A stretch of DNA of 64,000 bases from Candidatus Levyibacteriota bacterium (lineage in GTDB: Bacteria; Patescibacteriota; Microgenomatia; Levybacterales; UBA12049): the NCBI GenBank assembly GCA_963722305.1, contig CAVRKE010000002.1:251878-315877 (forward strand), written 5' to 3'. A program made the position numbers and the translations under genes. Shown here piece after piece: positions 26,016-54,551 of the stretch; within the stretch, counting starts at the first letter, position 1, and the number at the start of each line of letters is the position of its first letter. The notes beneath the pieces were generated by a model that saw only the letters and a program-made list of their open reading frames with translations, was not told where the DNA came from and ran no database searches.

Positions 26016-26118
26016 GGATATCCTTACTCCCGGAGAAATTGCTCTGCACATTAACAAAACAGAAAGCGTATTACCAAAGAGTATACGGGCTGATCTTCTG
26101 GATATTTCCAGATCAAGT

Positions 26119-26856
26119 TTGTACTATCAGCCAAGACCGGTTAAACCCGAGGCACTCATTTTAATGAACAGAATTGATGAGGTATATACTGCCCACCCTT
26201 TTTATGGTTCAAGACGTATGGCAAAAGAGGTTGGTGTTAACAGAAAACAGGCACAACGCCTGATGCGTGAAATGGGCTATGAGGCATTGTATCCGAAGCC
26301 TAATTTGAGTAAACCCGATAAACAACACATGTTCTATCCGTATTTACTCAAAGGAGTAGTTGCAGGATATCCAAATCATATCTGGGGCACAGATATTACG
26401 TATATTCGGATGAAACATGGGTTTGTATATTTAACTGCCTTTCTTGATTGGTTTACCAGATTTGTTGTTTCCTGGAAGCTCTCAATTACCCTTGAAACAG
26501 ACTTTTGTTTTGATGCTGCAACTGAAGCAATTGAGAAATTCGGAAGACCAACCATTATTAATGAAGATCAGGGATCACAAAATACCGATCATCTGATGAC
26601 AGATCTCTGGGAAAATCACAATGTCAAAATCAGCATGGACTCACGGGGACGGGCACTGGACAATATCTTCACCGAGAGGTTATGGAGGAGTGTTAAATAT
26701 GAAGAGGTATACTTAAAAGAATACGCTACTGTTTTGGAAGCAAAAGAAAACATTGAAAACTATTTTTACTTTTACAATTATGAAAGAAAACACCAATCGC
26801 TTAATTACAGAACACCGGCTGAAATATATTTTGGAAAGGAGGAAAACTTAGTCTAA
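26119..26856 (+). CDS. IS3-family transposase OrfB (rve integrase core). The frame is open upstream to about 25984, overlapping orfA.
   Basis: DDE/rve motifs …WGTDITYI…, …EDQGSQN…, …NYERKHQSL…. The frame is +1 relative to orfA by coordinates (see findings). Confidence 0.85.
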   Translation: MYYQPRPVKPEALILMNRIDEVYTAHPFYGSRRMAKEVGVNRKQAQRLMREMGYEALYPKPNLSKPDKQHMFYPYLLKGVVAGYPNHIWGTDITYIRMKHGFVYLTAFLDWFTRFVVSWKLSITLETDFCFDAATEAIEKFGRPTIINEDQGSQNTDHLMTDLWENHNVKISMDSRGRALDNIFTERLWRSVKYEEVYLKEYATVLEAKENIENYFYFYNYERKHQSLNYRTPAEIYFGKEENLV

Positions 26857-31848: not shown

Positions 31849-32665
31849 ATGAGACATTATGGTATGGATGATGATTATGTTCCAACCCATAAGCAAATGG
31901 ATATTATTGAATTGGTCTATAAATTCCGGTTTATTAATAGAAAACAAATACAGACAATCTTTGATTATAAAGACCCCAAAAGCGTTAACCCCCTATTGAA
32001 AGATTTAGTAGAGCATAAATACCTTAATAGAATTTATTCTCACAAGCTTTTAGAAAATACTAAACCTGCCATTTATTATTTAGCTAATGAAGGAATAGGT
32101 TGGGTTCGAGCAAATTTTTACGAAGACGAACCGGAAAAGGTAAAAAGATTTTATCAGGATAAACATGCATCGGATAGGTTTATTAATCACTGTATTGCGC
32201 TTTGCGATTTATCTCTGCAATGGCAAGGAGTCTAGAAAGGGATATCCAACTGATGGTTATTCTTTTAGTACGAGTACTGAGCTTTGGTACGAGGAGGAAT
32301 TAAAAACAATCCGACCTGATGCCCATATTGAAATTCGAGAAAATCAGATAATATCAACATTCTTCCTTGATCTGATAGAGCCATATGTCCCAATGTATGC
32401 AATTCGTTACAAGATTGATCAGTATATAGATTTTCGCAGTAATTCACGTTGGTGGGATGTCTACACGGGAAGCGATTTGACGTCTTTTGTTATCCGTCTA
32501 ATCTTTCCTAATCAAACAAAACAAAGACGCATGAGCAAATACATTAAAGAACAGTTATACGGATCGTTTGATACAGAAAATCTAACATTCCTACTCTCTA
32601 CGTATAAAAAGGCTTCGGAAGAGGGTGTAGAAGCCGACATTTGGGAAACAATAAAAGATGCATAA
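31849..32665 (+). pseudogene. Replication-relaxation family protein gene (Replic_Relax-like wHTH), interrupted by a +1 frameshift near 32220-32235
   Basis: Track ORFs 31849..32235 and 32165..32665 are the two halves. Motifs …HCIALCDLSL… then …RPDAHIEI…FFLDL…. The shift maps to the run ...CAAGGAGTCTAG.... Confidence 0.6.
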
Positions 32666-33979: not shown

Positions 33980-34216
33980 TAAGATCCACCTTTATTAGAA
34001 TAGGTGGTATTGCTTATGCAAAAGGTGTTTTTAAATTTAAAGCAAGAAGAGAAAGACTTATACCATTAAGCCAGGAATAGAATAGGATCTAACCTCGTCT
34101 ATCCCACGAATGCAGGAAATCCTTGTCAAAAGAGGGGCAAGACCCCTAGGATACTATCGATAAATAATCACTTCTTGTAATGATTGATTTTTCAAATTCT
34201 TTTACTATGGCAACCG

Positions 34217-34738
34217 CTATATAAATATATCAAGAACTTTATATTCCAAGTTATTTTCCTTGAATACGGTATCTATGCCTCTTTTTCTGGGACTATATTG
34301 ACTAACATGGTCTTTCCCTACGACAAGTAAAACTATTTTATCTGTTTTATTTTTTATTCTTTCATACCATATATTTTCTCTCTTATCGTTGTAATCATCT
34401 ATTAACTTTATATATGGTTCTTTTTCTTCATTGGTAAATCTAGAAGAGTTTACGATATTGAAGTATTCTACAATTTTTTCTAACTCTTCCAATCCATATT
34501 TAGATCTTTCATCAATTTCAGGTTCACACATAATATATTCAAGGCTATGCTTTACGGCTAGCTCTTTAACTATCATCCTATGATCCGGATTTTGAAAATT
34601 ATAAGTATTTACTTCTTCAGCGATGAGGGAGATTTTGAGGTCGCGAATTAATTTGTCTAGATATTGATAAAAAATCGGAGATTTTCTCGGGTCATCTCCA
34701 TATTGAATCATGTGATCGGTACCTAGTATATAAATCAT
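34217..34738 (-). CDS. Hypothetical protein
   Basis: 173 aa. Last gene of a three-ORF minus-strand unit with 34911..35213 and the small ORF 34774..34890. Confidence 0.45.
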   Translation of the reverse strand: MIYILGTDHMIQYGDDPRKSPIFYQYLDKLIRDLKISLIAEEVNTYNFQNPDHRMIVKELAVKHSLEYIMCEPEIDERSKYGLEELEKIVEYFNIVNSSRFTNEEKEPYIKLIDDYNDKRENIWYERIKNKTDKIVLLVVGKDHVSQYSPRKRGIDTVFKENNLEYKVLDIFI

Positions 34739-34773
34739 CGTCAGAAAATTGTATCGCTACGTTTCTAATAATT

Positions 34774-34890
34774 AAATTATCTTGGTGTCGATCTGTCAAA
34801 AGCCTTTATTCTTATTTTTTTACCATTAGATAATTTCCTCAAATAAGAGTGGACTTTAACAAATTTTTTGCCTCTTTGTGTTTCTGCCAT
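34774..34890 (-). CDS. Unannotated small basic protein (38 aa, MAETQRGKKFVKVHSYLRKLSNGKKIRIKAFDRSTPR) with a strong RBS
   Basis: Not in the ORF track (under 60 aa). RBS AAAGAGGAGGTGA is 8 nt upstream of the ATG at 34888-34890. It lies between two co-directional genes. Confidence 0.4.
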
Positions 34891-34910
34891 TTAATTTTTC
34901 ACCTCCTCTT

Positions 34911-35213
34911 TCATATATGCGCATACACTTCGCTCATTGCTGAATCATTTGGAGTATAAAACGGACGAATTCCTGTAAAGTTTTTATCTGTTAATTCCAT
35001 ACTTGAAATATTTTCCACGATAAAAAGCCTCCAGTTAGGGACATCATCGGGATGATTACTAAACCCGGAGATTTCCCATGCTCTCAAAAGCTCTTTATCT
35101 GAACCCCCTCTCCCATAACAAAAAGGCTCTATTAACCTTTCTCCTATTTCGTCCTTATAGCGAATGCTTACTATTGTTTTTGCTTGAATTGCTTGAGTTA
35201 ATGTTGAATTCAT
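34911..35213 (-). CDS. Small WYL-like domain protein (tentative)
   Basis: 100 aa. …IGERLIEPFCYG…WRLFIVENISSMELTDKNF… resembles the WYL ligand-binding beta-barrel signature (W-Y/R-L…R.F.ldRI). Assigned by pattern only. Confidence 0.35.
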   Translation of the reverse strand: MNSTLTQAIQAKTIVSIRYKDEIGERLIEPFCYGRGGSDKELLRAWEISGFSNHPDDVPNWRLFIVENISSMELTDKNFTGIRPFYTPNDSAMSEVYAHI

Positions 35214-35376
35214 AATCTATCACCTTAATTCCGGCACATAGTTAAAACTATACATCTAGTGCCACCAAAATAATATGGCACTATATCTACCCTGTCAACT
35301 ATTAACATCTATATCAAATTAGGTCAACATTATTTTTAGCTTCGGTTTGTGGCTAAGAAATCAATCGCTATAGTAT

Positions 35377-36132
35377 TTACATTCCTGAATATGGAGAAAC
35401 ATCAATTACAACACTACCAAGATCTTTATAATAATTCATCTTAACCTCTTTATTGCCCGTTATCTGTGAATCCTTTGTTTCTGTCCCATTGGAAAAAAGG
35501 ACAATCGTTTCATCAACCCAAGTTGTCCCATCACTCCAGTCAGGAGCAGCATTTTGAATAAATTGATGTGCTAAAACCAAAGCACTTTGATTTTCTGAGT
35601 TATGTTGACTTGCAATAAACATTAATTCGACATCAGATAAATTTGTTTTATTACCTATTAATTGTAAATTAGTATTGGCTGTATAGTCCGTTCCTACATA
35701 GTTTGGCTGACCCTTCACATCAACTCCTTGTTTCATTGTAAAAGAATCGCTTAATCCGACCATCATGTCATCATAGGAAACGCCTAGTGTTGGAACAGGC
35801 GTAGGACTTGAAGCGTTAGTTGGAGTCGCCTTTATTTTATTTGTTGGCGCTATGGTTGGTGTTTGCGTTGGTTGCGGAGTTGGCGTTGCGGTGACCTTAG
35901 CAAGGTTACCGGAATTGGTTTGTTGATTAGAAGGGCTATTTGAACCCGATGATGCTAAACTACTTATGATAAGGATTAAGAATAATATCGTAACTCCCCA
36001 TTTTAAGTACTTATTCCAATTGCTATATTTCCACATTAAGAATAATCCAACGGGAAAAAATAAGACAAGAAGTATTACTATCCAGATAGTCTTTGAGTGC
36101 CATTTTGAGCTTACCGTATTGTCTGATTCCAT
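35377..36132 (-). CDS. Membrane-anchored secreted hypothetical protein
   Basis: 251 aa. N-terminal TM helices, a Thr/Pro-rich linker and a C-terminal globular part. TTGACT-N17-TATATA promoter upstream. Confidence 0.5.
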   Translation of the reverse strand: MESDNTVSSKWHSKTIWIVILLVLFFPVGLFLMWKYSNWNKYLKWGVTILFLILIISSLASSGSNSPSNQQTNSGNLAKVTATPTPQPTQTPTIAPTNKIKATPTNASSPTPVPTLGVSYDDMMVGLSDSFTMKQGVDVKGQPNYVGTDYTANTNLQLIGNKTNLSDVELMFIASQHNSENQSALVLAHQFIQNAAPDWSDGTTWVDETIVLFSNGTETKDSQITGNKEVKMNYYKDLGSVVIDVSPYSGM

Positions 36133-36201
36133 AAGGATATAAATTCTGATTTGTATATATACCCAAATTAGAAGAAAGTCAAATTATTTCTAAAAATAAA
36201 T

Positions 36202-37107
36202 TTAACCAAGAACTTGCTTTAATCCTGCTTCTAAAACTCCTTCTTTGGCCATTTTATAATTAACTATACATGGAAACTTATTAAAATAATCTTGCATTAA
36301 TGATTTAGCTGACATCCACCCAAAGCCATCAGTAAATAAAAACAATGATAATGTAAATCCCTGGCTAAAAGTTCTGTTAACATAAGCGCCAGGAACTTCT
36401 AATTTAGTGCCACCTCCTGAAAAAAAATTTGCTTCTATATCAACAAATTTACCTCCTTTATAAACAATAAAATCCATATTCCTACGTAATTCCATAGGTG
36501 GTTCCTTAAAAGATAAGTCTCTTAATACTTTCTCAAATTTTTGTCTTATTTTTACTTGATAACCATTTTTATAAGCTATTTGCATAATTAGAGGTTCTAC
36601 AAACTTTTCCCATTCAACACCACCTCTATTTTTTCTAGCATTTGTGTCCGAACCTACTTCAACACCCATATAATAATCTCTTAAATTTTTTACTTCTTTT
36701 AAAACATTTGCTAACCCTGATTTTCTCCAAAAATCAATATATTCATAAATTTCAATATCTGTTTCTGGAAGCTTTGTAAAATCAAAATTTAAATATCTTC
36801 TCGTATCAGGGTCTTCAATAATAGAAAATTTATCATCTCTTATTGCTAACAATCGAGGGAAAACTCTAATAACTTCAGGATATTTTTTAATTGTTTCGAA
36901 AAATTCCTTAACGTCTGATTGCAAAACAGCTTCTAATATTCCTAATTCTATTTTATATTTTTCTACAAAATCTAATACTTTATCCCAATCCACATAAAAA
37001 CCCCACTCTCTATTTGTTATTAGAAGTGTTGATAAAAAATATTTAACAACGTCGTTAATATCGTTAATTCCTTTTATCTTTTTATAAATATCTATGTTAT
37101 TGTTCAT
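36202..37107 (-). CDS. Type II restriction endonuclease, DpnII/MboI family (GATC-type; specificity is inferred)
   Basis: 301 aa. Blocks recalled from R.DpnII: YPEVIRVFPRLLAIRD, GVEVGSDTNARKNRGG, DFIVYKGGKFVDIEANFFSGGG and FTDGFGWMSAK. It lies directly downstream of a beta-class methyltransferase gene in the same orientation. Confidence 0.65.
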   Translation of the reverse strand: MNNNIDIYKKIKGINDINDVVKYFLSTLLITNREWGFYVDWDKVLDFVEKYKIELGILEAVLQSDVKEFFETIKKYPEVIRVFPRLLAIRDDKFSIIEDPDTRRYLNFDFTKLPETDIEIYEYIDFWRKSGLANVLKEVKNLRDYYMGVEVGSDTNARKNRGGVEWEKFVEPLIMQIAYKNGYQVKIRQKFEKVLRDLSFKEPPMELRRNMDFIVYKGGKFVDIEANFFSGGGTKLEVPGAYVNRTFSQGFTLSLFLFTDGFGWMSAKSLMQDYFNKFPCIVNYKMAKEGVLEAGLKQVLG

Positions 37108-37109
37108 TA

Positions 37110-37941
37110 TTATTTAATATTCTCAAATCTTTTTATTGATAATTTTAGATAATCTTCTTCTTTGTCTATCCCTATAAATTTTCTCCCGTTCATGGCTGCA
37201 ACGATACCTGTTGTCGAACTTCCCGTGAATGGATCCAATATTACATCTCCTTTATTTGTACTTGCAAGTATTATTCTTTCAAGTAATGCAACTGGTTTTT
37301 GTGTTGGATGTTTGCCGTATTTTTTTTCGGAGGGCTTTGGCGTTGTTATGGACCAAACATCCTCTGGAAATCTATCAGAATTATTTTCAAACGCCCATAC
37401 GGAACGCATTTGTTTTCCTGGTTTTTTCATAAAGTCTTCCTGATGCCATTCCCCATTTTTCATTAATTTATAATTGAAAGTGTGCTTAGCATCTTTACTT
37501 TTTCTTGCCCAAATCAAAGTCTCATGGCTTGCGGTAAAATATCTTCCACTTAGATTTGGCGAAGCATTTGGCTTAAACCACGAAATATCATTTAGAATAT
37601 GGTAGCCATTAACTTCTAAAGCATAACCACATCTGTAAATAGAATGATAGGTTCCACTTATCCAGATTGTTCCATTTGGTTTTAATACTCTTTTGCAAGC
37701 CTCTATCCATTTCATATGGAAATATAAGTCCTCTTCCAATCCTTTACTCTTATCCCAATCTCCTTTATGAACACTTACTCTTTTCCTGCATGGACAGTAA
37801 AACCACCATTGGAAAGATTGTACGGAGGATCAGCAAAAATCATATCGAAATGCTCGGGAGGAAATTGTTTCATTAATTCTATAGAATCACCTAAATATAG
37901 AGCAAAATTTTTGTCTTTATCGAGGAAATATGGCTTCTGCA
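37110..37941 (-). pseudogene. Beta-class N6-adenine (N4/N6) DNA methyltransferase, DpnA-like. The reading frame is broken by two 1-nt homopolymer shifts.
   Basis: The N-terminal 55 codons (37941->37777; …FADPPYNLSNGGFTVHAGKE*) carry motif IV DPPY. The body (from 37739; …HPTQKP…DPFTGSSTTG…) carries motif I. Frames differ across 37737-37780. The shifts sit in an A4 run (GGAAAAGAG) and in GATTGGAAG, where an intact copy would read TGGG. Confidence 0.65.
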
Positions 37942-37989
37942 TAAACTTGAACCAATAATAACACTTTGGGAAATTTTTGGAAAGGTATT

Positions 37990-39060
37990 CTAAATAAAGA
38001 AATTGAACCCTTTATCTATTTTCAGCGTATCTGGATTTTCCCCTTCTTCTAAGTGTTTTTTAAGGCCGCTTGTATAAAGCTCTTGCCCCTCTTTCCCTAA
38101 TTTACTCCAAAGAGAATCTGAAAAAACTATGTTTTCGCAATTATTAGCAAGTAAATTTGTCAACAGAATCTTTTTTTGATCATCATTGACCGAAATCAAT
38201 TGTTTTTCTAGGAATGAGTAGTAATCATGGAATTCAGCAAAATAGCTTAACAATACATAAGTCTTCCCATTTTGGGGAAATATCGTAATAAAGAAAATGC
38301 TAGCCGGTTTTTCTAAATCTTGCAGTTGGCTCTTCATATTCCCTTCGAAATCGTAAAGAAAATTTATAGCAGAGCTTACAGAGAATAAATATTCTTCGTT
38401 AAAAGCGATAACTTTTGTTTCTATTAAATCATATTTCTTTTGCTCAAAGCACTCTTTAAATCGGTCGTAAGAAGCGATACTATCTTTTATAGATAGTTCG
38501 CTTCCTGCCACAAATAGAGCGCTATCAATATCTATGATCTGCGCCCTGCTCGTAACATAATTTGATAAAATTTTCAGGTAGGCCTCTTTCGAATATGCCC
38601 TGAAAGCAAACAGGAAATCTTGCTTCTGACTTCCAATTTGATAATCTTTCTCCTCAATTTCTTTAAAAATTAAATTGTCATGAAATTTACAAAAACCTGT
38701 AAAGGTAGTTGCCGAATTCTTGCTAATATCTTTTGCTGAGAGGGTAAATTCAACCGGATCCGTGCTTGGGGTAGGAAAAACCATTTTCACCATACCATTT
38801 TTAGATAATTTTTTTAAAATTTTGTTATTTTGTATTGAGTGTGCGTTAACTATTCCCCCTTTACATTGATCTTTAATTGGATAAAGACAGGTCATTACTT
38901 CTGCATTTTTAAACATTTGGGCCATCTTTACGCTTACAGGTTTCTTCAAACTATCTTGATGTAATTTATTGTTTAAATAACCGCAGGCTTTCCATTTCTT
39001 GCCGCTTCCGCAAATACAAAGCTTGTTCCTTTCAAACCTTAGCTTTAGTTTCTTTTTCAT
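37990..39060 (-). CDS. SEC-C-motif protein with an uncharacterised C-terminal domain
   Basis: 356 aa. N-terminal CICGSGKKWKACGY metal-binding SEC-C motif, then conserved-looking …GGIVNAHSIQNNKIL… and …FTGFCKFHD…. No family assigned. Confidence 0.5.
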   Translation of the reverse strand: MKKKLKLRFERNKLCICGSGKKWKACGYLNNKLHQDSLKKPVSVKMAQMFKNAEVMTCLYPIKDQCKGGIVNAHSIQNNKILKKLSKNGMVKMVFPTPSTDPVEFTLSAKDISKNSATTFTGFCKFHDNLIFKEIEEKDYQIGSQKQDFLFAFRAYSKEAYLKILSNYVTSRAQIIDIDSALFVAGSELSIKDSIASYDRFKECFEQKKYDLIETKVIAFNEEYLFSVSSAINFLYDFEGNMKSQLQDLEKPASIFFITIFPQNGKTYVLLSYFAEFHDYYSFLEKQLISVNDDQKKILLTNLLANNCENIVFSDSLWSKLGKEGQELYTSGLKKHLEEGENPDTLKIDKGFNFFI

Positions 39061-39104
39061 GCTGCTCGGATTATAGTACTATGGGGAATTTTTGGAAAGC
39101 AGGG

Positions 39105-39824
39105 TTAGTTTATTTTGCTTGTGTAGGGTTTTAGTTTTTCTTTTATTTCCAGACATTGCTCGGGAGATAAATAGCCAGTCGAGCACGTTGTTAATAATTT
39201 TTCTAACCACTTTTTACCAATAACATAAACACCATCTACTGGAGCTAATCCAAAATTCATGCGTGTTCTTTTGTTCGCAAAGACTAAGGCGGAAGCAACA
39301 GGAACAGCGTATCCAAGTTGAATCAAAAGATTTTCAACTTCTTTTGATTCGGCATAAGCCTGTTTTAAATCTTTATCTAAATATTTATCGTGAATGATTA
39401 CTCTTTCCGATAAATTTTTAACTTCAATCGTCCAAACTCCTGTTGGCCCAACTACAACACAGTCTATATTTCCTTTTTTATCTCCAATCATTACATCAGA
39501 TAAATAATGAAAACCTTCCGATTTTAACTTATACAAAATGTCTCTAATATCCATTTCTCCATCGTCTCCTTTTATAAAATTTAAATAGATCTTCGCAAAA
39601 AACACCAATAAGCCAAACAAAAAAATATCTACGACTAGAACAACAAGCTGTAAATTAATATTGCCATGCGTATTAATCTTTGAGGTTAAATAAAAAGTTA
39701 TTCCTATGAAACCAAACAATAACGCAGCGAGGGTAATTATTTGAATATTGTAAGAAACTTTTCTCACTGTCTTAATAGAACAACTATTTCCCTTTGAAGT
39801 CAAATTAGAATATGGGAGTGTCAA
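39105..39824 (-). CDS. Membrane-anchored NERD-domain (nuclease-related) protein
   Basis: 239 aa. Two TM helices, then …GEMDIRDILYKLKSEGFHYLSDVMI…NIDCVVVGPTGVWTIEVKN…, matching the NERD pattern. Confidence 0.6.
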   Translation of the reverse strand: MTLPYSNLTSKGNSCSIKTVRKVSYNIQIITLAALLFGFIGITFYLTSKINTHGNINLQLVVLVVDIFLFGLLVFFAKIYLNFIKGDDGEMDIRDILYKLKSEGFHYLSDVMIGDKKGNIDCVVVGPTGVWTIEVKNLSERVIIHDKYLDKDLKQAYAESKEVENLLIQLGYAVPVASALVFANKRTRMNFGLAPVDGVYVIGKKWLEKLLTTCSTGYLSPEQCLEIKEKLKPYTSKIN

Positions 39825-39939
39825 AGATCTCTCTTGTTTCTAGCTTCTTTTTTTATTAAAACACCTGATGAGAATATAGCTTTTTTAATCCAAAAATGCA
39901 ACTAATCATTTTGAATAGGAAGGATATATTTAATACTCA

Positions 39940-40041
39940 TTGACTTACTTTTAATCAGTGTTATAATCGATTCATGAGGTGAATCTGCATCGCAAGGTGT
40001 AGACCACTTCTCCAAAGAAAACTAGTTCGCTAGTTTTTTTT
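39940..40041 (+). ncRNA. Candidate small transcription unit (promoter + about 65-nt RNA + terminator), antisense/adjacent to the DUF3800 3' end
   Basis: TTGACT (39940-39945), 16 nt, TATAAT (39962-39967), then ...AAAACTAG-TTCG-CTAGTTTTTTTT at 40017-40041. The only ORF inside is ATGAGGTGA. Confidence 0.25.
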
Positions 40042-40042
40042 G

Positions 40043-40921
40043 TTATAAGGGATCCATTGTAACCTCTTCTAAATCTACCCCCAAATTTCTTAATTCAGTC
40101 CTAACTTTTTGAATAACTTTAAATCTATTCTTAGGAACATCTGCTAATTCTGCGTTTAATTTTTTAGAAAATCTTAAAGTTTGAAATGAAATATATGAAA
40201 TTAAATCTGCAATTTCAATTCCAGCATCTAAAGATTTCTTATTATGTAGTCTAATGCCTAAAACTTTTTTCCCATAATCCGAATCGATATCAATGTAGGT
40301 ATTGTATATACCTACTAACCTAAGATCAGTCGTTCGATTTGACTCTGCATTTACATAACCAATTGCATCTTCTTCCTTAAGCACGCTTAAATGATAATTT
40401 AATGCTCTTTTTATGGTGAGATCTAATGGAATAAAAATTTTACCGCTTAGTGATTTTTTTAATTTTCTACTAAACTCTTTTTTCTTTAGCTTGTAATCGC
40501 CTGCACTTGAATATGCTGGTGGTTCATCAATATGTAATCTGGATCTAACTTTGGGTAGATCAACATAAAAAGATATTGATTTAAATGTGATATAGCTTAA
40601 GAATTCCATTAATTCTTCTACGGCGTTGTTAAAATTTCGTGAAATAGACAATTCAGTTTTAATAATATGACTTGCCTTAGGATTTTTGCTCTCAAAAAAA
40701 TCAAATGCATGCAAACATTTATAAGGATTCAGTAAATATTTATCTCTCCATTTTTGCATTAGGAGATTTGCTAAAGTTCTCTGTTTTGGATCGATTATTA
40801 CTGCTGTGATAAGAAAGTATCTAAATTTTGACTGTCCAACGTAGGATAATCCTGATTCATCGATATATAAATCAAGTCTAGGATCTTGAATAATTGCATT
40901 TTTCACAATTATATTATACAC
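40043..40921 (-). CDS. DUF3800-family protein
   Basis: 292 aa. N-terminal …LDLYIDESG…, the signature DESG motif. Confidence 0.6.
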   Translation of the reverse strand: MYNIIVKNAIIQDPRLDLYIDESGLSYVGQSKFRYFLITAVIIDPKQRTLANLLMQKWRDKYLLNPYKCLHAFDFFESKNPKASHIIKTELSISRNFNNAVEELMEFLSYITFKSISFYVDLPKVRSRLHIDEPPAYSSAGDYKLKKKEFSRKLKKSLSGKIFIPLDLTIKRALNYHLSVLKEEDAIGYVNAESNRTTDLRLVGIYNTYIDIDSDYGKKVLGIRLHNKKSLDAGIEIADLISYISFQTLRFSKKLNAELADVPKNRFKVIQKVRTELRNLGVDLEEVTMDPL

Positions 40922-41027
40922 CTAAGATTGCACAATGTATATCGTGCCTCGCGTCGCACAAGATTTGCTTTACGTCAAAACGTAATTGAAACTTTTATCG
41001 GTATAATATTTGAGGCTAGAATATGGT

Positions 41028-41052
41028 GTTTGTCAAGTGTCACTTGACAAAC
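41028..41052. promoter_or_regulatory. 25-bp perfect palindrome carrying TTGACA -35 boxes in both orientations, between the divergent DUF3800 and ATPase genes
   Basis: GTTTGTCAAGTG-T-CACTTGACAAAC. The plus-strand promoter continues 17 nt to TAATAT, then 8 nt to the ATG at 41081. Confidence 0.55.
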
Positions 41053-41080
41053 ACCCCCCGTATATGTAATATATGGATAG

Positions 41081-42262
41081 ATGTTTATCTCAAGAAATAT
41101 TTTACCAAAACTTGAACAGGAACTCGAAAAAAAGGAAGCAACCGTAATTACGGGTATGAGAAGAGTTGGTAAGACCACACTTCTCGTTCACCTTTTTGAT
41201 TCAATAGCTTCCAAAAATAAAACGATCTTTGATCTAGAAAATCCCTTGCACAGACATGTTTTTGAGGAAGAAAACTATGATAATATTTGGAATAATTTAG
41301 CTCAATATGGCATAACCAATAAAGAAAAAGCATATCTTTTTATTGATGAAATACAGAACTTACCAACTATCAGCACCGCCATTAAGTATCTGTACGACCA
41401 TTTTGATATTAAATTCGTGCTCACTGGGTCTAGTAGCTATTATCTTAAGAACCTTTTCCCTGAATCACTCAGCGGAAGAAAAGTTGTGCTCGAATTATAT
41501 CCGCTAACTTTTTCTGAATTCCTAAGTTTTAAAGGGGTAGAAAAAAAATATTTTCCAACTTTTGAGGAAAAGATAAAAAGCAAAAATAAAATAAACTTCG
41601 AGCAACACAAAAAGTATTATGATGAATATATTGAGTTTGGTGGATTTCCCGCAGTAGTGTTAGAGGAAAACAGAGAAAGAAAAAAAATTCTTTTGGAGGA
41701 GATTTTTACTTCGTATTTTGAAAAAGATGCCAAAAATCTAGCCGATTTTAAAGACATGGCAAAACTTAGAGACTTAATTTTACTTTTAGTCCCACGCATA
41801 GGACAACGCATAGAAATAGCAAAGCTTGCCTCAAATCTTTCTCTATCGCGAGAAACAGTATATAACTATTTATATTTCCTCGAACAAACATATTTTATTT
41901 CGTTATTGTCGAAGTTTTCAAAAAGTATTGACCGTCAATCATCCGGAGGAAAAAAATTATTCCTATGTGACAGCGGCATTGCTAATATACTTGGAAAAAT
42001 ATCATTAGGACAGCTTTTTGAACAGAGTGTTTTCCAAAATTTAAGACCCTCTTTTACCTTACATTACTATAACAAGGAAGGAAAGAGCGAAATTGATTTT
42101 ATCGTTGACGAAAAAACTGCTTTGGAAGCTAAGCTTACTTTTTCACTCGCTGATCAGGAATACTTAAAAAGAAAAACATATCCTTTGAATTTAAAAGAGA
42201 CTTATATTGTATCTTTGGACTTCAACGATAGCGAAAACTCCCTTCCAGCAACTGAATTATAA
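41081..42262 (+). CDS. AAA_14/DUF4143-type ATPase (archaeal-ATPase-like)
   Basis: 393 aa. Walker A …ITGMRRVGKTTLL…, Walker B …LFIDEIQ…. DUF4143 C-terminal region. Leaderless-type promoter downstream of the palindrome. Confidence 0.8.
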   Translation: MFISRNILPKLEQELEKKEATVITGMRRVGKTTLLVHLFDSIASKNKTIFDLENPLHRHVFEEENYDNIWNNLAQYGITNKEKAYLFIDEIQNLPTISTAIKYLYDHFDIKFVLTGSSSYYLKNLFPESLSGRKVVLELYPLTFSEFLSFKGVEKKYFPTFEEKIKSKNKINFEQHKKYYDEYIEFGGFPAVVLEENRERKKILLEEIFTSYFEKDAKNLADFKDMAKLRDLILLLVPRIGQRIEIAKLASNLSLSRETVYNYLYFLEQTYFISLLSKFSKSIDRQSSGGKKLFLCDSGIANILGKISLGQLFEQSVFQNLRPSFTLHYYNKEGKSEIDFIVDEKTALEAKLTFSLADQEYLKRKTYPLNLKETYIVSLDFNDSENSLPATEL

Positions 42263-42313
42263 ATATAACCCAGATAATCTATGTCGTAAAACTTTTGATT
42301 TAGGACGTGAATT

Positions 42314-43501
42314 TTAAGCTATGAATTCTAAATAATTATGAGGCGTAATAACAGAAAACTTTTCCGACTCTGGATAACTAACCATCCAATCTTTTGGGGG
42401 AAGAACCTCGTTTTTTGTTGACCATTTAAATTCATAAGGAAACAGTTTGCCTTCTCTTTCTTCAATCAAATCTATTTCCCTTTGTTCGTAAGTTCGCCAA
42501 AAGTATGAATATCCATGAATATGTTTATATGATCTTTTTTTCATTCTTTCTATCATCAGAAAGTTTTCCCAAAGACTTCCTATATCATTTCTTGAATCAA
42601 GTCCGTTAAATTGGGAGATTACTGCATTCCGTATACCGTTGTCAAAAAAGAAGTATTTAGACTTGCTTGTTACTTCAGAACGCAAATTTCTGCTGAATGT
42701 GCTCAGGCGGAAAATAATAAAAGCTTTTTCCAAAAGATCCAGATAGCGCCCTACTGTTTTTACATCTATGGCAAGATTTGTCGACAACTCATTTAGGGAA
42801 ACCTCATTCCCTACCTGAAAGGCTAAAAGTTTTAAAAGGTCAAGCAAAGTTTTTGAACCCTTTAATTGTTGAAGAGCAAGTATATCCTTGAAGATGTATG
42901 AATTAACCAGTTCCTCAAGAATTCGTATTTTTTCTTCTTTTGTTTTAGCAGTAATAACCTGAGGATAACTTCCTAGAACAAGATACTCTTCCAATTTTTC
43001 TTTTAAATCATGACTATTATGCTCTGGCAGAAGTTCAAGTTGGGCAATCGGATATAAAGTCAGGGTAGTTTTTCTGCCCATCAGGGGTTCGCCGATTTGG
43101 TTTGAAAGATCGAAAGACGACGAACCCGTTGCGATAACTTTGAGATTCGGCACCTGGTCGACAAGTATTTTGATACCCATTCCGATATTCGGAATGTATT
43201 GCGCTTCGTCAAGCACAATCAGGTCATAACCCTGTGCGTATTCAAGTATTCGCGTGAAATCTTGAGACCCCAACAAATCCTGGATACGGATATTATCGCC
43301 CGAATCCAGCTTATATTTTAAGGTGGTGTTTTTTATAAAATTCTCCAACAGCGTTGTTTTTCCGACTCTTCGGGGACCATAGATGATTAACGCTTGGTTC
43401 GCTTTAAGAAATGGGTTCAAATCATCGTAAAAATGGGCAATCATAGGAAAAATATACCATAATTCCACAAATTTGTCAAATTTTATGGAGTTCAATTCCA
43501 T
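42314..43501 (-). CDS. AAA_14/DUF4143-type ATPase, second copy, convergent with the first. The true start is probably MIAHFYDD, about 43444.
   Basis: 395 aa. …IIYGPRRVGKTTLLENF…, …LVLDEAQYIPN…. A divergent paralog of 41081..42262. Confidence 0.8.
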   Translation of the reverse strand: MELNSIKFDKFVELWYIFPMIAHFYDDLNPFLKANQALIIYGPRRVGKTTLLENFIKNTTLKYKLDSGDNIRIQDLLGSQDFTRILEYAQGYDLIVLDEAQYIPNIGMGIKILVDQVPNLKVIATGSSSFDLSNQIGEPLMGRKTTLTLYPIAQLELLPEHNSHDLKEKLEEYLVLGSYPQVITAKTKEEKIRILEELVNSYIFKDILALQQLKGSKTLLDLLKLLAFQVGNEVSLNELSTNLAIDVKTVGRYLDLLEKAFIIFRLSTFSRNLRSEVTSKSKYFFFDNGIRNAVISQFNGLDSRNDIGSLWENFLMIERMKKRSYKHIHGYSYFWRTYEQREIDLIEEREGKLFPYEFKWSTKNEVLPPKDWMVSYPESEKFSVITPHNYLEFIA

Positions 43502-43678
43502 AGATTAAGCCTATTTTACGTATAATTTATGGATTGAGCCTGACCATGAATAGGCATATCCCGGTTTTAGCGTCGTACAAAAATTTGGTTTACGTCAAGC
43601 TTACAAACAATTGAGCTTAACAACTCTAGTTTTTATACGCCTTGACAAAATTTCATAGTTATGCTATTCTGTACGTAT

Positions 43679-44212
43679 ATGTACAGGATAAATGAACTGT
43701 TGAAGCTAGATCGAAAAATATATCATAGCAACGATTTGGCTATTCTTTGGGAAATTACAAATAAAAATACCCTTTATACAACAATAAAACGTTATGTAAA
43801 AAAGGGGGTTCTAATTCCTGTTTTTAAGGGACTTTATACCACGATTCCCACTACTCAACTTGATCCGTTAGTCCTTGGCACTGCGATTATCCACAGGTAT
43901 ACTTACCTAAGCACCGAATCGGTACTTGTAACACACGGGGTTATTTCGCAAATAACTTACAACTATACCTTCATAAGTAGCCTATCGAAAAAGGTGACTA
44001 TTGAAGATCGAACATTTTTGTTTCGAAGATTAAACCCAAAATTTCTTAATAATCCATTCGGAATCGAAAAAAGAGGAGACGTTTACGTTGCGACTCTTGA
44101 ACGTGCGGTATCGGACATGCTTTACTTCGATCCAAAGTATACATTTGATGTTAAAAAACAAATTGACTGGAAAAAAGTCAAACAAATTCAAAAGGAAGTA
44201 GGATACGTATGA
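43679..44212 (+). CDS. AbiEi-like antitoxin (wHTH + C-terminal domain) of a type IV TA/abortive-infection pair. Start taken at MYRINEL.
   Basis: TTGACA-N17-TATTCT promoter at 43642-43670. 4-nt overlap with the downstream AbiEii gene. Typical size and position. Confidence 0.55.
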   Translation: MYRINELLKLDRKIYHSNDLAILWEITNKNTLYTTIKRYVKKGVLIPVFKGLYTTIPTTQLDPLVLGTAIIHRYTYLSTESVLVTHGVISQITYNYTFISSLSKKVTIEDRTFLFRRLNPKFLNNPFGIEKRGDVYVATLERAVSDMLYFDPKYTFDVKKQIDWKKVKQIQKEVGYV

Positions 44213-44946
44213 TTAACTTAAGACCTCAAGATACAATCCATAAATCCTATTTAAACAGGATCTTAATTGAAGTAATAGATAATCCGATTCTCTCCCAAAA
44301 TTTAGCTTTTAAAGGAGGTACCTGTGCATCCATGCTTGGGTTTCTAGACCGTTTCTCCGTCGACTTGGATTTTGATCTTATTACCGATTTTGACAAAAAA
44401 ATAATCAGAAAAGAGTTTCGACAAGTTTTTAAGAAATTAGATTTGAACATTACAATGGAATATACAAATGTAATATTTTTCCTGGTTAAATATCCAAGTG
44501 CTATAGCAAACCAAAGAAATTCTATTAAAATCAGCTTAAACGACGTAAAGATTAAATCCAACGAATATAAAGTTCAATTTTTCCCTGAAATAGATAGGCT
44601 AATGAATAGCCAGACGATAGAAGCAATGTTTGCCAATAAATTAGTCGCTGCAACTGATAGATATCGAAGATTTCATACTATTGCTGGTCGTGATATTTAT
44701 GATATTCATCATTTTTATACGAGAGGTTATAAATATAAAAGTGAAATTATTAAAGAACGAACCGGTCTTACTAGTTCTGTATACTTAAATAAATTAATCG
44801 AATTCATTAAAGAACACGTTAATCAAAAGATAGTTGACGAAGACCTTAATACGCTACTTCCAAACGATTATTTTCAGCAAATACGTAAAATTCTTATTCC
44901 CGAAACATTATTTTTTCTTTCTGAAAACAAAACTAATAAAATATAA
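44209..44946 (+). CDS. AbiEii/AbiGii-family nucleotidyltransferase toxin (DUF1814)
   Basis: 245 aa. Signature …LAFKGGTCASMLGFLDRFSVDLDFD…. Confidence 0.8.
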   Translation: MINLRPQDTIHKSYLNRILIEVIDNPILSQNLAFKGGTCASMLGFLDRFSVDLDFDLITDFDKKIIRKEFRQVFKKLDLNITMEYTNVIFFLVKYPSAIANQRNSIKISLNDVKIKSNEYKVQFFPEIDRLMNSQTIEAMFANKLVAATDRYRRFHTIAGRDIYDIHHFYTRGYKYKSEIIKERTGLTSSVYLNKLIEFIKEHVNQKIVDEDLNTLLPNDYFQQIRKILIPETLFFLSENKTNKI

Positions 44947-45036
44947 TGTGAAGATAAATTTAATATCTAAATATAATTTGTTTTTCTTCGAGTCGTAAAA
45001 ACTTTGGTTTACGACAAAATTCTTGACAAAAGTAAT

Positions 45037-45065
45037 AGTTCCTAGTACACTAGGAACTAGGAACT
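45037..45065 (+). promoter_or_regulatory. Perfect palindromic operator overlapping the -10 of the wHTH-PRTase gene promoter
   Basis: AGTTCCTAG-TACA-CTAGGAACT at 45037-45058, with an extra AGGAACT half-site at 45059-45065. The promoter is TTGACA (45023-45028), 17 nt, then TACACT. Confidence 0.55.
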
Positions 45066-45066
45066 T

Positions 45067-46041
45067 ATGACACGAACCTCAGATAAAATAATCGAATATA
45101 TTTCAAAAGCTAATCACGCTAGTGGCAAAGAGATCACAAACTATCTTGGGAATATTACCGACAGAGCAGTAAGAAAACAATTAAGATCTCTTTTACAAAA
45201 AGGTATTCTAACAAAGGTCGGAAAACCTCCCAAAGTTTATTACCAAATTAACAATAAGGTGACAGAAAAAAATATCCCTATCGACCAAAAAATCAAAGAT
45301 TTTATTGATAAGCATTACTTATATATCTCGCCAGCGGGAGAATCGCTTGAAGGTTGGAAGGGATTTGTAGCGTGGTGCAATAAAACAAACCAGGATCCTC
45401 TCAAAACAGTAAGGGATTATCAGGTCACATTAAATAAATTTAATAAGTACAAAAAAAATGGGTTAATTGACGGAATGCCAAAAATGAGAAATACCTTTAA
45501 AAAAGTATTTTTAGACAAATTATTTTATCTTGATTTCTATAGTATCGAAAGATTCGGTAAAACAAAACTTGGCCAAATGCTTTTATATGCAAAACAAAGT
45601 CAGAATAGAATTCTAATATCAAGATTGATAGATAACATTAAACCAGACATTTTAAAAATTATTTCGAAATATAAAATAGACGGTGTCATTTACATTCCCC
45701 CAACAGTGAAACGTGAGGTTCAGTTAATGAAAGAGTTAGAAAATAATTTAAGTTTACCGTTAAGAACGTTGGGGGTAACCAAAATAAAAACAGAGATAAT
45801 TGTTCCCCAAAAAACTCTTTCAAAGCTTGAAGACAGGATTGAGAACGCAAGGAAAACAATTATCGTAAATGAACATAACAAGTATAAAAACGTTCTTCTA
45901 ATTGATGACGCTGTGGGATCGGGAGCAACAATGAATGAAACGGCAAAGCAAATAAAGAACAAGGGGCTGGTGTCCGGACAAATACTTGGATTGGCTGTTA
46001 CAGGTAGCTTTAAAGGGTTCGACATTATTAGTGAGGTTTAA
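45067..46041 (+). CDS. Winged-HTH + ComF-like phosphoribosyltransferase (PRTase) domain protein
   Basis: 324 aa. N-terminal wHTH (…GKEITNYLGNITDRAVRKQLRSLLQKGIL…). C-terminal type I PRTase with PRPP motif …VLLIDDAVGSGATMNE…. Confidence 0.6.
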   Translation: MTRTSDKIIEYISKANHASGKEITNYLGNITDRAVRKQLRSLLQKGILTKVGKPPKVYYQINNKVTEKNIPIDQKIKDFIDKHYLYISPAGESLEGWKGFVAWCNKTNQDPLKTVRDYQVTLNKFNKYKKNGLIDGMPKMRNTFKKVFLDKLFYLDFYSIERFGKTKLGQMLLYAKQSQNRILISRLIDNIKPDILKIISKYKIDGVIYIPPTVKREVQLMKELENNLSLPLRTLGVTKIKTEIIVPQKTLSKLEDRIENARKTIIVNEHNKYKNVLLIDDAVGSGATMNETAKQIKNKGLVSGQILGLAVTGSFKGFDIISEV

Positions 46042-46175
46042 ATTTTTGAGACCTCTCCTTTCTAAATCATCTTTCATTTAAAAAGAACGTCTGTCGAATA
46101 GCTCCCAACTCTCCAATAACAATTAAATCCTTCATGTCGCAAAATCCTTGGGTTTGCGATGTAAATTTGAGGCTA

Positions 46176-47019: not shown

Positions 47020-48175
47020 GGTAAGTAGAAAGCGATCTATTCCTGGTTGTGCTTGAAGGCACACATAACCAACAAGCATATCGTAGTACTTCCTAAGGCA
47101 AGACTTTTAAGCTCTCCTTTTCTTTCTTCTCTTTCTCTTCTTTCTTTAAGGCTTAAAAGAAAAGGAGGTGATGAAAATGATAGTTGTAGGCGTAGATGTC
47201 TCAAAAGACACCCTTGTTGCTGTGGCAATTGATAAATCAATACGAATAAAGCATTCATTTACCGTTAAGAATAACAAGGAAAGTATCGATAAGTGGTTAA
47301 ATGCTCTTCCGTACAAAAAGATGCTGCTCTCTTGTGAGGCAACTGCCGAATACCACAGGGTACTTGCACTTTTGGCTCTTTCTTCTAAAATACCATTGAG
47401 GTTATTAAATCCCATTGTGACTAAGCAATATACCAAAGCAACTGTTCGAAAGAGAAAAACTGACCCTCAAGACGCATTAACCATTGCTAAGCTGGCTCTT
47501 GCCGGAGAAGGAAGGCTGATAAGTACCCAAACTTTTCACATTGCCAAAACCCATGAGAGAACCGCCATAAAGCTAACACACATGAAACAGCGTCTTTTAC
47601 TAATACAACAGCACGTACAAGAGGTAGATCCGGATGATACAGCTTCTTTTGAGGAGTTGCAGGTCTGTATTGATACCATAGAACAGTCAATCAAAGCATT
47701 TAGGAAGAAAGCAGAAGAAGAGGTTGATTCAAAACTTGTTAAACTGCTTTGCTCTATACCGGGAGTGGGAGAAACAATAGCAACGGTACTTCTTGCGGAA
47801 ATCGGAGATATTAATCAGTTCAAATCAGATAAAGCCCTCGTTGCTTATGCGGGATTGGATCCAAAGGTCAAACAATCAGGAGGAAGATTACACCATAATA
47901 CCCATTTAACTAAAAGAGGCTCTCCTTACCTTAGACAGATGCTCTATACAGGAGCTTCTATTGCACAACGGCATGATAAGGAACTTAAGGCGTATTACGA
48001 GAAGAAGAGAGCTGAGGGAAAGAGGTACAAAGAAGCAACCATTGCGGTATCAAGAAAACTGCTCAATAGAGTATATGCAGTTTTAAAAAGGCAGACACCT
48101 TATATACCTGGATGAGATACATCGGTAACACTTTGAGACCAGGGGTCTTGACAAAAGATTCCTGGTCTCTAACGT
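47020..48175 (+). mobile_element. IS110-family element, copy 1 (approximate ends)
   Basis: Contains the transposase 47168..48115. Its ends were inferred by alignment with copy 2: left about ...AAGCGATCTATTCCTGGTTG..., right ...GGGGTCTTGACAAAAGATTCCTGGTCTCT. A CT-rich leader and AGGAGGTGA RBS precede the transposase gene. Confidence 0.55.
47168..48115 (+). CDS. IS110-family transposase (DEDD N-terminal domain + C-terminal HhH domain)
   Basis: 315 aa. N-terminal …VGVDVSKDTL… and C-terminal …SIPGVGETIATVLLAEIGDINQF… typical of the IS110 family. Confidence 0.85.
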   Translation: MMKMIVVGVDVSKDTLVAVAIDKSIRIKHSFTVKNNKESIDKWLNALPYKKMLLSCEATAEYHRVLALLALSSKIPLRLLNPIVTKQYTKATVRKRKTDPQDALTIAKLALAGEGRLISTQTFHIAKTHERTAIKLTHMKQRLLLIQQHVQEVDPDDTASFEELQVCIDTIEQSIKAFRKKAEEEVDSKLVKLLCSIPGVGETIATVLLAEIGDINQFKSDKALVAYAGLDPKVKQSGGRLHHNTHLTKRGSPYLRQMLYTGASIAQRHDKELKAYYEKKRAEGKRYKEATIAVSRKLLNRVYAVLKRQTPYIPG

Positions 48176-51359: not shown

Positions 51360-51480
51360 GTTATAACAATGTTATAACAAACTACACTATTTGTCAAGAC
51401 GGTTCATAGTCGCACAATCTATGTTTGCGAAAAATTAGATGTAAATTAATTTTGGGATTCTAGTACTTTGGGGAAGGAAG

Positions 51481-54534: not shown

Positions 54535-54551
54535 ACTCCTATAATATAGTT

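What the first reader, a model, noticed from the sequence alone, without database searches (positions are those of the whole stretch)
36202..37941. DpnII/MboI-like R-M pair whose beta-class methyltransferase is broken by two homopolymer frameshifts while the endonuclease is intact
The endonuclease (301 aa) aligns block-by-block with R.DpnII-family enzymes as recalled from memory.

The upstream methyltransferase has its DPPY motif-IV exon-like piece (37941->37777) in one frame and its body from 37739 (HPTQKP...DPFTGSSTTG) in another. About 35 nt carrying stops in the body frame separate the two pieces. Both shifts lie in homopolymer runs: an A4 run, and a GG run where the intact sequence would read GGG.

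An intact restriction enzyme with a dead methylase would be lethal. So either these are homopolymer sequencing errors, or the system is phase-variable, or the endonuclease is inactive or covered by another Dam-like methyltransferase.
Basis: partly seen in the sequence, partly recalled or inferred. Interest (0 to 1): 0.6.

Follow-up and report, generated by a model that had tools for sequence, protein, structure and literature searches.

The report
GATC restriction cassette, methylase missing one base
This is an ordinary two-gene bacterial restriction-modification cassette for the DNA site GATC whose protective methylase gene lacks a single base in this assembly only, most likely an assembly error or a very recent mutation rather than a designed feature.

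Summary
The restriction-modification (R-M) pair is real. The gene at 36202-37107(-) is a full-length DpnII-family endonuclease (R). It keeps every residue that is invariant across its family. The gene at 37110-37942(-) is a beta-class DpnA/LlaDCHIB-like adenine methyltransferase (M).

There is one frameshift, not two, and no stops lie between the pieces. The body frame is open back to 37829 and overlaps the N-terminal frame. One missing base, the wobble base of Gly52 (GG[N] AAA AGA, between 37785 and 37784), accounts for everything. Restoring it gives a 277-aa protein differing by one residue from intact orthologues.

The pair is a 1.81-kb mobile cassette found in at least three genomic contexts in Patescibacteria. 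The intact 277-aa M was found on 23 other contigs; the deletion was found nowhere else. M differs from the orthologues by 49 synonymous and 1 non-synonymous codon change, so the break is either brand-new or not real.

Phase variation and programmed frameshifting are not supported. I cannot separate a consensus error (about 0.5) from a fresh, tolerated mutation (about 0.33) without reads. Intact Type II endonuclease genes next to corrupted methylase genes are a documented category (Ershova et al. 2012) in which some cases proved to be sequencing errors. Interest is low.

The parts
36202..37107 (-). R gene: DpnII-family Type IIP restriction endonuclease, 301 aa, uninterrupted
   Evidence: Matches PF04556 at E 3.7e-62, full length, and PADLOC REase_II at 9.5e-54. 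All 21 invariant columns of a 37-sequence family alignment are kept. It is 31% identical to the endonuclease of the lactococcal plasmid pSRQ700.
37110..37942 (-). M gene: beta-class N6-adenine DNA methyltransferase (DpnA/LlaDCHIB-like), 833 nt where orthologues have 834, so the frame is broken once
   Evidence: With one base restored it matches PF01555 at positions 2-220 of 221, E 1.1e-63. It is 52.6% identical to the beta-class methylase of pSRQ700. The best solved-structure match is CcrM (6PBD), E 2.2e-56.
37775..37942 (-). N-terminal reading frame of M (55 codons plus TAA), carrying motif IV DPPY at 37831-37820
37110..37829 (-). Body reading frame of M, open over its whole length. The first in-frame starts are TTG 37739 and ATG 37715 (the 201-aa product in public annotation, P0021). 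Motif I DPFTGSSTTG is at 37235-37206.
37781..37786 (-). Frameshift site GG|AAAA. The wobble base of Gly52 is missing between 37785 and 37784.
   Evidence: The window reads GCAGG-AAAAGAGTA. L001 and L009-L014 read GGT AAA AGA. L003, L004 and L008 read GGG AAA AGA. L006 and L007 read GGA AAA AGA. L005 reads GGC AAG ATG.
36176..37985 (-). Extent of the mobile R-M cassette: homology to the same cassette in other genomic contexts begins and ends here
   Evidence: blastn against L001, L003 and L009 gives 96.4-96.6% identity with 1 gap, and the flanks are unrelated.
37955..37983 (-). Promoter-like site (TTTCCA, 17-nt spacer, TGnTATTAT) inside the ~45 nt upstream of M that is conserved across cassettes
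   Evidence: This is a consensus match only. Such hits are no more frequent in the region than in shuffles.
37105..37112 (-). M stop / R start junction TAA-TA-ATG (2-nt spacer), identical in all eleven related loci that contain it

Best explanation
What it is (shown): a 1.81-kb mobile Type IIP restriction-modification cassette for GATC. It lies in a low-GC defence island of a Patescibacteria (CPR) chromosome. M comes first and R second, separated by 2 nt, behind a short conserved upstream segment.

How it works (inferred from family membership): M is a beta-class DpnA/LlaDCHIB-type enzyme that methylates the adenine of GATC. R is a DpnII-type enzyme that cuts unmethylated GATC.

The break: the apparent break in M is one missing base at the wobble position of Gly52. 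I judge it most likely not to be a property of the living cell. Either it is a consensus or assembly error, or it is a non-representative allele picked up where several cassette variants co-occur in the sample. On this reading the gene is an ordinary intact 277-aa methylase and the system is an ordinary working R-M pair.
For: 1. Apart from the missing base, M is flawless. It differs from intact orthologues at 49-52 synonymous codons and only one non-synonymous codon (K67R).
2. R is intact and keeps every invariant family residue. A real lesion would therefore give the R+ M- genotype, which is toxic for Type II systems (Ershova et al. 2012, PMC3488263).
3. The deletion is unique to this assembly. 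The 277-aa M (P0251) was read intact on 23 contigs and is indexed in 49 blocks of the collection. Two scans of metagenome contigs for the deleted allele found nothing.
4. The missing base sits at a position that is T, G, A or C among related cassette alleles.
5. An independent k-mer assembly of run ERR11594402 matches both flanks (100% and 99.93% identity), but its contigs stop at the cassette. One stops exactly 31 nt inside it, at 37955. The other starts at 36231. The cassette is thus a branch point with several variants or contexts in that sample.
6. A second otherwise pristine gene in the same window also carries a single 1-nt indel (Replic_Relax at ~32229; its intact homologue is 271 aa and 92% identical). 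That makes two such events in 64 kb.
7. Precedent: annotated frameshifts in the MjaVIP and MjaIV methylase genes were sequencing errors. In Brucella, 109 of 138 frameshifted or truncated genes vanished on resequencing (PMC3488263).
Against: - There is no general homopolymer problem. 155 homopolymer runs of 6 nt or more (44 of 7 nt or more) lie inside uninterrupted ORFs. These include an A8 and an A6 inside M itself and the A8 of the IS3 slippery site.
- The second frameshift is an insertion outside any homopolymer.
- Both frameshifts lie in the 27-kb mobile part of the window and none in the 37-kb core. This is what real decay of accessory genes would look like, although random errors would give this split by chance with P about 0.18.
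- The same cassette family does decay in nature. In L005, R carries two nonsense codons.
- No reads were available, and the sequencing platform of the 679-kb source contig is unknown.
Confidence: 0.5

Rival explanations
1. The deletion is real and very recent, so M is a fresh pseudogene. The cell tolerates it for one of three reasons: another GATC-specific methylase elsewhere in the ~679-kb genome covers the sites; R is not expressed; or the premature stop at codon 56 also reduces translation of R, which starts 2 nt after the M stop.
For: - Both single-base frameshifts in the window lie in mobile or accessory DNA. Long homopolymers are all correct.
- The cassette family decays in nature. L005 has an intact M, while its R carries two stop codons and a G152C change at an invariant glycine.
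- GATC is the most depleted 4-nt palindrome in the core parts of the window (32 observed against 105.7 expected, O/E 0.30). In the mobile part O/E is 0.81. The lineage therefore has a long history with GATC restriction that predates this island, which makes a second GATC system or methylase plausible.
- Ershova et al. counted 11 full-length Type II endonuclease genes with a corrupted methylase gene nearby in 1040 genomes.
- R cassette alleles differ by more non-synonymous than synonymous changes (4-5 against 2-3). The counts are small, but this is compatible with weak constraint.
Against: - No second [DNS]PP[YFW] methyltransferase ORF exists in the 64-kb window.
- Unlike DpnII and LlaDCHI, the cassette has no alpha-class Dam-like partner.
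- R keeps all invariant residues.
- M shows no other lesion after 49 or more synonymous changes.
- The polarity argument is weak. Shine-Dalgarno motifs are rare genome-wide (9 of 53 genes against a 10% background), so their absence before R says nothing.
- 106 GATC sites remain in the window.
Confidence: 0.33
2. The deletion is real, but functional methylase is still made. One route is -1 ribosomal slippage of tRNA-Lys on GGA_AAA_G, which would yield exactly the wild-type peptide ...AGKRVSV.... The other is association of the 55-aa DPPY fragment with the separately initiated body.
For: - From the sequence itself: a -1 slip on the A4 run gives G-K-R-V-S-V, identical to the intact orthologues.
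- A 0-frame stop follows two codons after the Lys codon.
- The split falls just after motif IV.
- Natural two-piece methyltransferases are known, from my own recall and not checked here.
Against: - There is no canonical X_XXY_YYZ heptamer. Compare the true IS3 site A_AAA_AAG at 25988-25994 in the same window.
- The downstream RNA folds no better than shuffles (z = -0.78).
- None of the 13 related loci uses a shifted frame, so nothing is programmed.
- Unstimulated slippage on a 4-nt run is expected to be very inefficient (my own knowledge).
Confidence: 0.05
3. The system is phase-variable: the G/A tract expands and contracts to switch M on and off.
For: The break lies at a G2/A4 junction. Relatives read G3A4 or G2A5 there.
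Against: - Tracts of 2-5 nt are far below the lengths that drive slipped-strand switching (my own knowledge).
- Relatives vary at this position by substitution, not by length.
- No length variant was seen on 23 contigs or in two metagenome scans.
- Switching off only M of a Type II pair would be suicidal.
Confidence: 0.02

Closest known systems
LlaDCHI (LlaII) system of Lactococcus lactis plasmid pSRQ700 (NC_002798.1), and the homologous DpnII system of Streptococcus pneumoniae (dpnM-dpnA-dpnB)
   Same: The beta-class methylase is directly followed by a DpnII-family endonuclease on the same strand. pSRQ700 is the best plasmid match for M (52.6% identity over 99% of the protein). Its adjacent endonuclease also matches R (31% identity over 91%). 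GATC specificity is inferred from this relationship.
   Different: The classical systems have three genes, with an alpha-class Dam-like methylase (DpnM/LlaDCHIA) first. The Patescibacteria cassette has only the beta-class methylase plus R in every locus seen, so it has no built-in back-up methylase. The role of DpnA in methylating single-stranded DNA during transformation comes from my own knowledge and was not tested.
Full-length Type II endonuclease with a corrupted methylase gene nearby ('solitary RE' category of Ershova et al., NAR 2012, PMC3488263)
   Same: This is exactly that configuration: an intact Type II R, an adjacent M with a single frameshift, and intact orthologous systems in other organisms. 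The paper records that some such cases (MjaVIP, MjaIV) were sequencing errors.
   Different: Here the orthologues are near-identical (a single residue difference in M), so the lesion can be pinned to one base. The source is an uncultured organism, so no enzyme assay exists.
CcrM (PDB 6PBD) and other beta-class N6-adenine methyltransferases (M.RsrI, M.MboIIA)
   Same: They share the motif order (DPPY first, the SAM-binding motif last). CcrM is the best match among solved structures (E 2.2e-56, residues 16-270).
   Different: CcrM recognises GANTC and has a C-terminal extension. It is an orphan cell-cycle enzyme, not part of an R-M pair (my own knowledge).
Phase-variable methyltransferases with homopolymer tracts (e.g. 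Helicobacter, Neisseria, Haemophilus)
   Same: A frame-breaking length change next to a run of identical bases.
   Different: The tract here is 2+4 nt with no length polymorphism among relatives. The known switches use much longer tracts (my own knowledge).

Membership tests
DpnII-family Type IIP restriction endonuclease (Pfam PF04556) | Full-length match to the family profile above the curated cut-off | tested here: met
   210.6 bits against a cut-off of 23; profile positions 3-277 of 278.
DpnII-family Type IIP restriction endonuclease (Pfam PF04556) | Conserved family residues retained (no inactivating substitution at invariant positions) | tested here: met
   All 21 invariant and 17 near-invariant columns were defined on an alignment that includes the window sequence. 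The private change E34 lies in a variable column (G/R/T/E).
DpnII-family Type IIP restriction endonuclease (Pfam PF04556) | Cleaves unmethylated GATC and is blocked by G6mATC | not testable with these tools
   Inferred from family membership only. No solved structure of a relative exists.
Beta-class N6-adenine DNA methyltransferase, DpnA/LlaDCHIB group (Pfam PF01555) | Motif IV (DPPY) lies N-terminal to motif I (FxGxG-like), with a full-length profile match | tested here: met
   DPPY is at 37831-37820 and DPFTGSSTTG at 37235-37206. The PF01555 match covers positions 2-220 of 221 after restoring one base.
Beta-class N6-adenine DNA methyltransferase, DpnA/LlaDCHIB group (Pfam PF01555) | One uninterrupted reading frame | tested here: not met
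   The gene is 833 nt here against 834 nt in orthologues. The 0-frame stop is at 37777-37775.
Beta-class N6-adenine DNA methyltransferase, DpnA/LlaDCHIB group (Pfam PF01555) | GATC specificity | not testable with these tools
   Supported indirectly. M is always paired with a DpnII-family R and is 52.6% identical to the beta methylase of pSRQ700. However, 80-86% identical relatives are paired with a different nuclease (PDDEXK_11) in L006 and L008.
Three-gene DpnII/LlaDCHI cassette | An alpha-class Dam-like methylase (DpnM type) upstream of the beta methylase | tested here: not met
   The upstream gene is a SEC-C-motif protein. No other [DNS]PP[YFW] ORF exists in the window. It is absent in all related loci as well.
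Phase-variable (slipped-strand) R-M gene | A long simple repeat with length polymorphism among close relatives | tested here: not met
   The tract is G2A4. Thirteen loci differ by base, never by length. Two metagenome scans found no second frameshifted copy.
Programmed -1 ribosomal frameshift gene | A conserved slippery heptamer, a stimulatory element, and the shifted architecture conserved in orthologues | tested here: not met
   There is no X_XXY_YYZ heptamer. The downstream fold has z = -0.78. All orthologues are in a single frame.
Solitary Type II endonuclease with a corrupted methylase gene nearby (Ershova et al. 2012) | A full-length R, an M within 4 kb carrying a frameshift or stop, and intact orthologous systems elsewhere | tested here: met

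The most novel reading that the evidence does not exclude
The missing base is real, and the organism lives with an active GATC endonuclease. One possibility is that the methylase is still produced at a low level by unprogrammed -1 slippage on GGA_AAA_G, which recreates the exact wild-type peptide, or as a two-piece enzyme. The other is that the lineage is a survivor of methylase loss that is purging its GATC sites. For that second possibility the hints are a core GATC O/E of 0.30 and the window's second frameshift being an insertion that destroys a GATC site.
Probability: 0.06. Interest if true: 0.55.

Novelty: already known. Interest (0 to 1): 0.18.

Why it matters
If the break is an artefact, the only consequence is an annotation fix: the public record carries a 201-aa fragment where a 277-aa methylase belongs. 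If the break is real, it would be one more example of the rare R+ M- state. It would then point to a second GATC methylase or to silencing of R in a very small CPR genome. That would be mildly useful for understanding how R-M cassettes decay without killing the host, but it is not a new kind of system. The useful by-products are a precise description of a compact two-gene GATC cassette that moves between defence islands in Patescibacteria, and the strong GATC avoidance of the host core genome.

Tried and rejected
- Two-frameshift model: rejected. Translation in three frames shows the body frame is open across the supposed gap.
- Exact-sequence look-ups of the window's R and its 209-aa M body found nothing.
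- Independent assembly of the site: Logan contigs of ERR11594402 match both flanks but stop at the cassette edges, so they give no second reading of the frameshift.
- Two metagenome-contig scans found nothing: one for the window allele with or without the base, one for the deleted form in any allele.
- Organism and platform identification failed. Cluster look-ups carry no names. A literature search for the run accession found nothing. A Patescibacteria gene-transfer paper (PMC12455944) was not about this genome.
- Translational coupling of R to M, argued from the lack of a Shine-Dalgarno motif: dropped. Such motifs are barely above background genome-wide.
- Stimulatory RNA structure downstream of the site: not significant.
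- Flanking repeats that might explain cassette mobility: only short chance-level matches.
- Solved structure for R: none by sequence.
- The DUF3800 protein gives a weak PADLOC 'MTase_II' hit (E 5e-5, 20 bits). I disregarded it: the protein has no catalytic motif and its Pfam match is DUF3800.

Full report
**What is in the sequence.** On the minus strand, 36202-37107 is an uninterrupted 301-aa ORF (the endonuclease, R). It matches Pfam PF04556 (DpnII restriction endonuclease) end to end (E 3.7e-62) and PADLOC REase_II. Immediately upstream, 37110-37942 encodes an N6_N4_Mtase-type methyltransferase (M) in two frames. A 55-codon piece carries DPPY and ends at a TAA stop (37777-37775). A body carries HPTQKP and DPFTGSSTTG. 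Motif IV lies before motif I, and the best solved relatives are CcrM, M.MboIIA and M.RsrI.

**Correction of the anatomy.** Three-frame translation shows the body frame is open from 37829 downward, reading ...CPCRKRVSVHKGDWDKSKGLEEDLYFHMKW.... It overlaps the N-terminal frame by about 50 nt. There is no stretch with stops between the pieces, and only one frame change is needed. Inserting one base after GCAGG gives a 277-aa protein that matches PF01555 in one stretch (positions 2-220 of 221, E 1.1e-63). DNA alignment to intact relatives pins the lesion to the wobble base of Gly52. The window reads GCA GG- AAA AGA GTA. L001 and L009-L014 read GGT AAA AGA. L003, L004 and L008 read GGG. L006 and L007 read GGA. 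L005 reads GGC. Depending on the ancestral base, the event was G3 to G2, A5 to A4, or loss of a T or C.

**What the pair is.** Homology to the same two genes in other contigs runs from 37985 to 36176 (1.81 kb, 96.4-96.6% identity, one gap) and then stops. The cassette sits in at least three different neighbourhoods:
- after a SEC-C-motif gene, here;
- after a 281-aa gene downstream of a NERD gene, in L001 and L009-L014;
- between hypothetical genes and a GmrSD gene, in L003, L004 and L011.

About 45 nt upstream of M is conserved and contains a promoter-like TTTCCA-17-TATTAT site (a consensus match only). The M stop and R start are separated by 2 nt in every copy. Named relatives are all Patescibacteria.

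The closest annotated system is on the lactococcal plasmid pSRQ700. There a Dam-like methylase, a beta methylase (52.6% identical to M) and an endonuclease (31% identical to R) follow one another. From my own knowledge this is the LlaDCHI system, a homologue of pneumococcal DpnII. The Patescibacteria cassette is the two-gene version without the alpha-class methylase.

The cassette lies in a low-GC stretch (0.31-0.35 against 0.40-0.46) that is a defence island. The island also holds DUF3800, NERD, two PDC-S01 ATPases, AbiEi/AbiEii and a PRTase-type protein.

**How old is the break?** Apart from the missing base, M differs from L001, L003 and L004 at 49-52 synonymous codons and one non-synonymous codon (K67R). 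Forty-five of the 51 nucleotide differences from L001 lie in the first ~400 nt, so the 5' part is a recombinant allele. L005 shows a different mosaic, so recombination inside M is a natural feature of this family. Such purifying selection with no second lesion means the break is either evolutionarily instantaneous or not real.

R differs from other cassette copies at only 6-8 nt (4-5 non-synonymous changes). It keeps all 21 invariant and the near-invariant family columns. Its one private change (E34, where the others have G) lies in a variable column. There is therefore no sign that R is dead.

**Is the break a designed feature?** No.
- The 277-aa M (P0251) was read intact on 23 contigs and is indexed in 49 blocks of the collection. 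It is followed by a 301-aa R wherever the contig extends far enough.
- Thirteen loci vary at the site by substitution, never by length.
- Two metagenome scans for the deleted form found nothing.
- The tract (G2A4) is far too short for slipped-strand switching.
- There is no canonical slippery heptamer and no significant downstream structure (z = -0.78). By contrast, the IS3-type element in the same window has a textbook A_AAA_AAG site.

One curiosity remains. A -1 slip of tRNA-Lys on the A4 run would regenerate exactly the wild-type peptide AGKRVSV. I treat this only as a low-probability route for leaky rescue.

**Error or real mutation?**

For an artefact:
- The gene is otherwise pristine.
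- The R+ M- genotype is toxic for Type II systems.
- The missing base sits at a position that varies among related alleles.
- The cassette is a branch point in an independent assembly of run ERR11594402. Contigs matching the window flanks at 100% and 99.93% identity end 31 nt (one k-mer) into the cassette, at 37955, and begin at 36231.
- A second otherwise intact gene in the window, Replic_Relax at 31849-32662, also has a single 1-nt indel relative to 92%-identical 271-aa homologues.
- Ershova et al. (PMC3488263) describe exactly this category. They found 11 full-length Type II endonucleases with corrupted methylase genes nearby in 1040 genomes. The MjaVIP and MjaIV cases proved to be sequencing errors.

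For a real lesion:
- The assembly has no general homopolymer problem. 155 runs of 6 nt or more lie inside uninterrupted ORFs, including an A8 and an A6 within M.
- The second frameshift is a non-homopolymer insertion.
- Both frameshifts are in mobile DNA and none in the 37-kb core.
- The cassette demonstrably decays elsewhere. In L005, M is intact while R has two nonsense codons plus a G152C change.
- GATC is the most depleted 4-nt palindrome in the core parts of the window (O/E 0.30, against 0.81-0.90 in the mobile part). This suggests long exposure to GATC restriction that predates this island, and hence possibly another GATC methylase in the genome.

Within the window there is no other amino-methyltransferase motif in any long ORF. 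The other ~615 kb could not be examined.

I put the artefact or non-representative-consensus reading at about 0.5. I put a real, recent, tolerated lesion at about 0.33, leaky rescue at about 0.05 and phase variation at about 0.02.

**Verdict.** The R-M identification is right and the 'two frameshifts' is wrong. The puzzle of an intact endonuclease with a broken methylase reduces to one missing base found only in this assembly. Both the system and the phenomenon are known. Interest is low unless read data show that the deletion is real and GATC is unmethylated.

Noticed in passing
window 31849-32662 (+), frame change at ~32229: There is a second single-base frameshift. A Replic_Relax (PF13814) gene is split into 129-aa and 173-aa ORFs by a 1-nt insertion (GCAAGGAGTCTAG, where intact 271-aa homologues L018/L019 read GCAAGGA-TCTAG). 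The insertion is not in a homopolymer and it destroys a GATC site. Over the 1.77 kb aligned with L018 the window has lost 3 of 6 GATC sites (now GGTC, GACC and GAGTC) and gained none.
   Followed up: partly
window 1-24000 and 51301-64000 versus 24001-51300: GATC is strongly avoided in the core chromosome: 32 observed against 105.7 expected (O/E 0.30), the lowest of all 4-nt palindromes. It is not avoided in the mobile or island part (O/E 0.81; island 34-46 kb, 0.90).
   Followed up: partly
L005 919-1821 (ENA ERZ28653740, WOOD18 metagenome scaffold_33469): The same cassette shows the opposite decay state. M is intact (287 aa as called). R carries two in-frame stop codons (FIVY*GD*FVD) and a G152C change at an invariant glycine.
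   Followed up: yes
window 37540-37942 versus 37110-37540; L001/L003/L005 M genes: M is mosaic. About 11% of sites, almost all synonymous, differ from L001/L003 in the first ~400 nt, against 1-2% in the rest of M and under 1% in R. L005 has a different divergent 5' block. Recombination breakpoints therefore lie inside the methylase gene. R alleles differ by more non-synonymous (4-5) than synonymous (2-3) changes.
   Followed up: partly
L006 6001-7329; L008 1120-2499: Methylases whose genes are 80-86% identical in nucleotide sequence to the window's M gene are followed by a 160-aa PDDEXK_11 nuclease (E 3.6e-52) instead of a DpnII-family enzyme. The same methylase lineage therefore partners with unrelated nucleases.
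   Followed up: partly
window 34000-46100: A low-GC (0.31-0.35) defence island holds NERD (39105-39824), DUF3800 (40043-40921), a SEC-C-motif protein of unknown function (37990-39060), two PDC-S01 AAA_14/DUF4143 ATPases (41081-42259 and 42317-43504), AbiEi/AbiEii (43646-44943) and an HxlR-PRTase, PsyrT/ShosT-like protein (45061-46038).
   Followed up: partly
L015 (window 40980-37955) and L016 (window 36231-35330), Logan assembly of ERR11594402: Contigs from an independent assembly match the window flanks (100% and 99.93% identity) but end at the cassette. One ends exactly one 31-mer inside it. The sample therefore holds several cassette variants or contexts.
   Followed up: yes
window 25710-26853 (+); 47150-48112 (+); 49772-50722 (-); 11336-12421 (-): Mobile elements. 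An IS3-type element has HTH_Tnp_1 and rve ORFs in overlapping frames and a canonical A_AAA_AAG slippery site at 25988-25994. Two IS110-family transposases flank a PQQ beta-propeller gene. There is also a further rve integrase.
   Followed up: partly
window 22083-22188 (+): A SAM-I/IV riboswitch (RF01725, 47.6 bits) lies directly upstream of metK (22213-23304).
   Followed up: no
whole window: Shine-Dalgarno-like motifs are barely enriched upstream of genes: 9 of 53 genes against a 10% background. No tRNA genes occur in the 64 kb.
   Followed up: no
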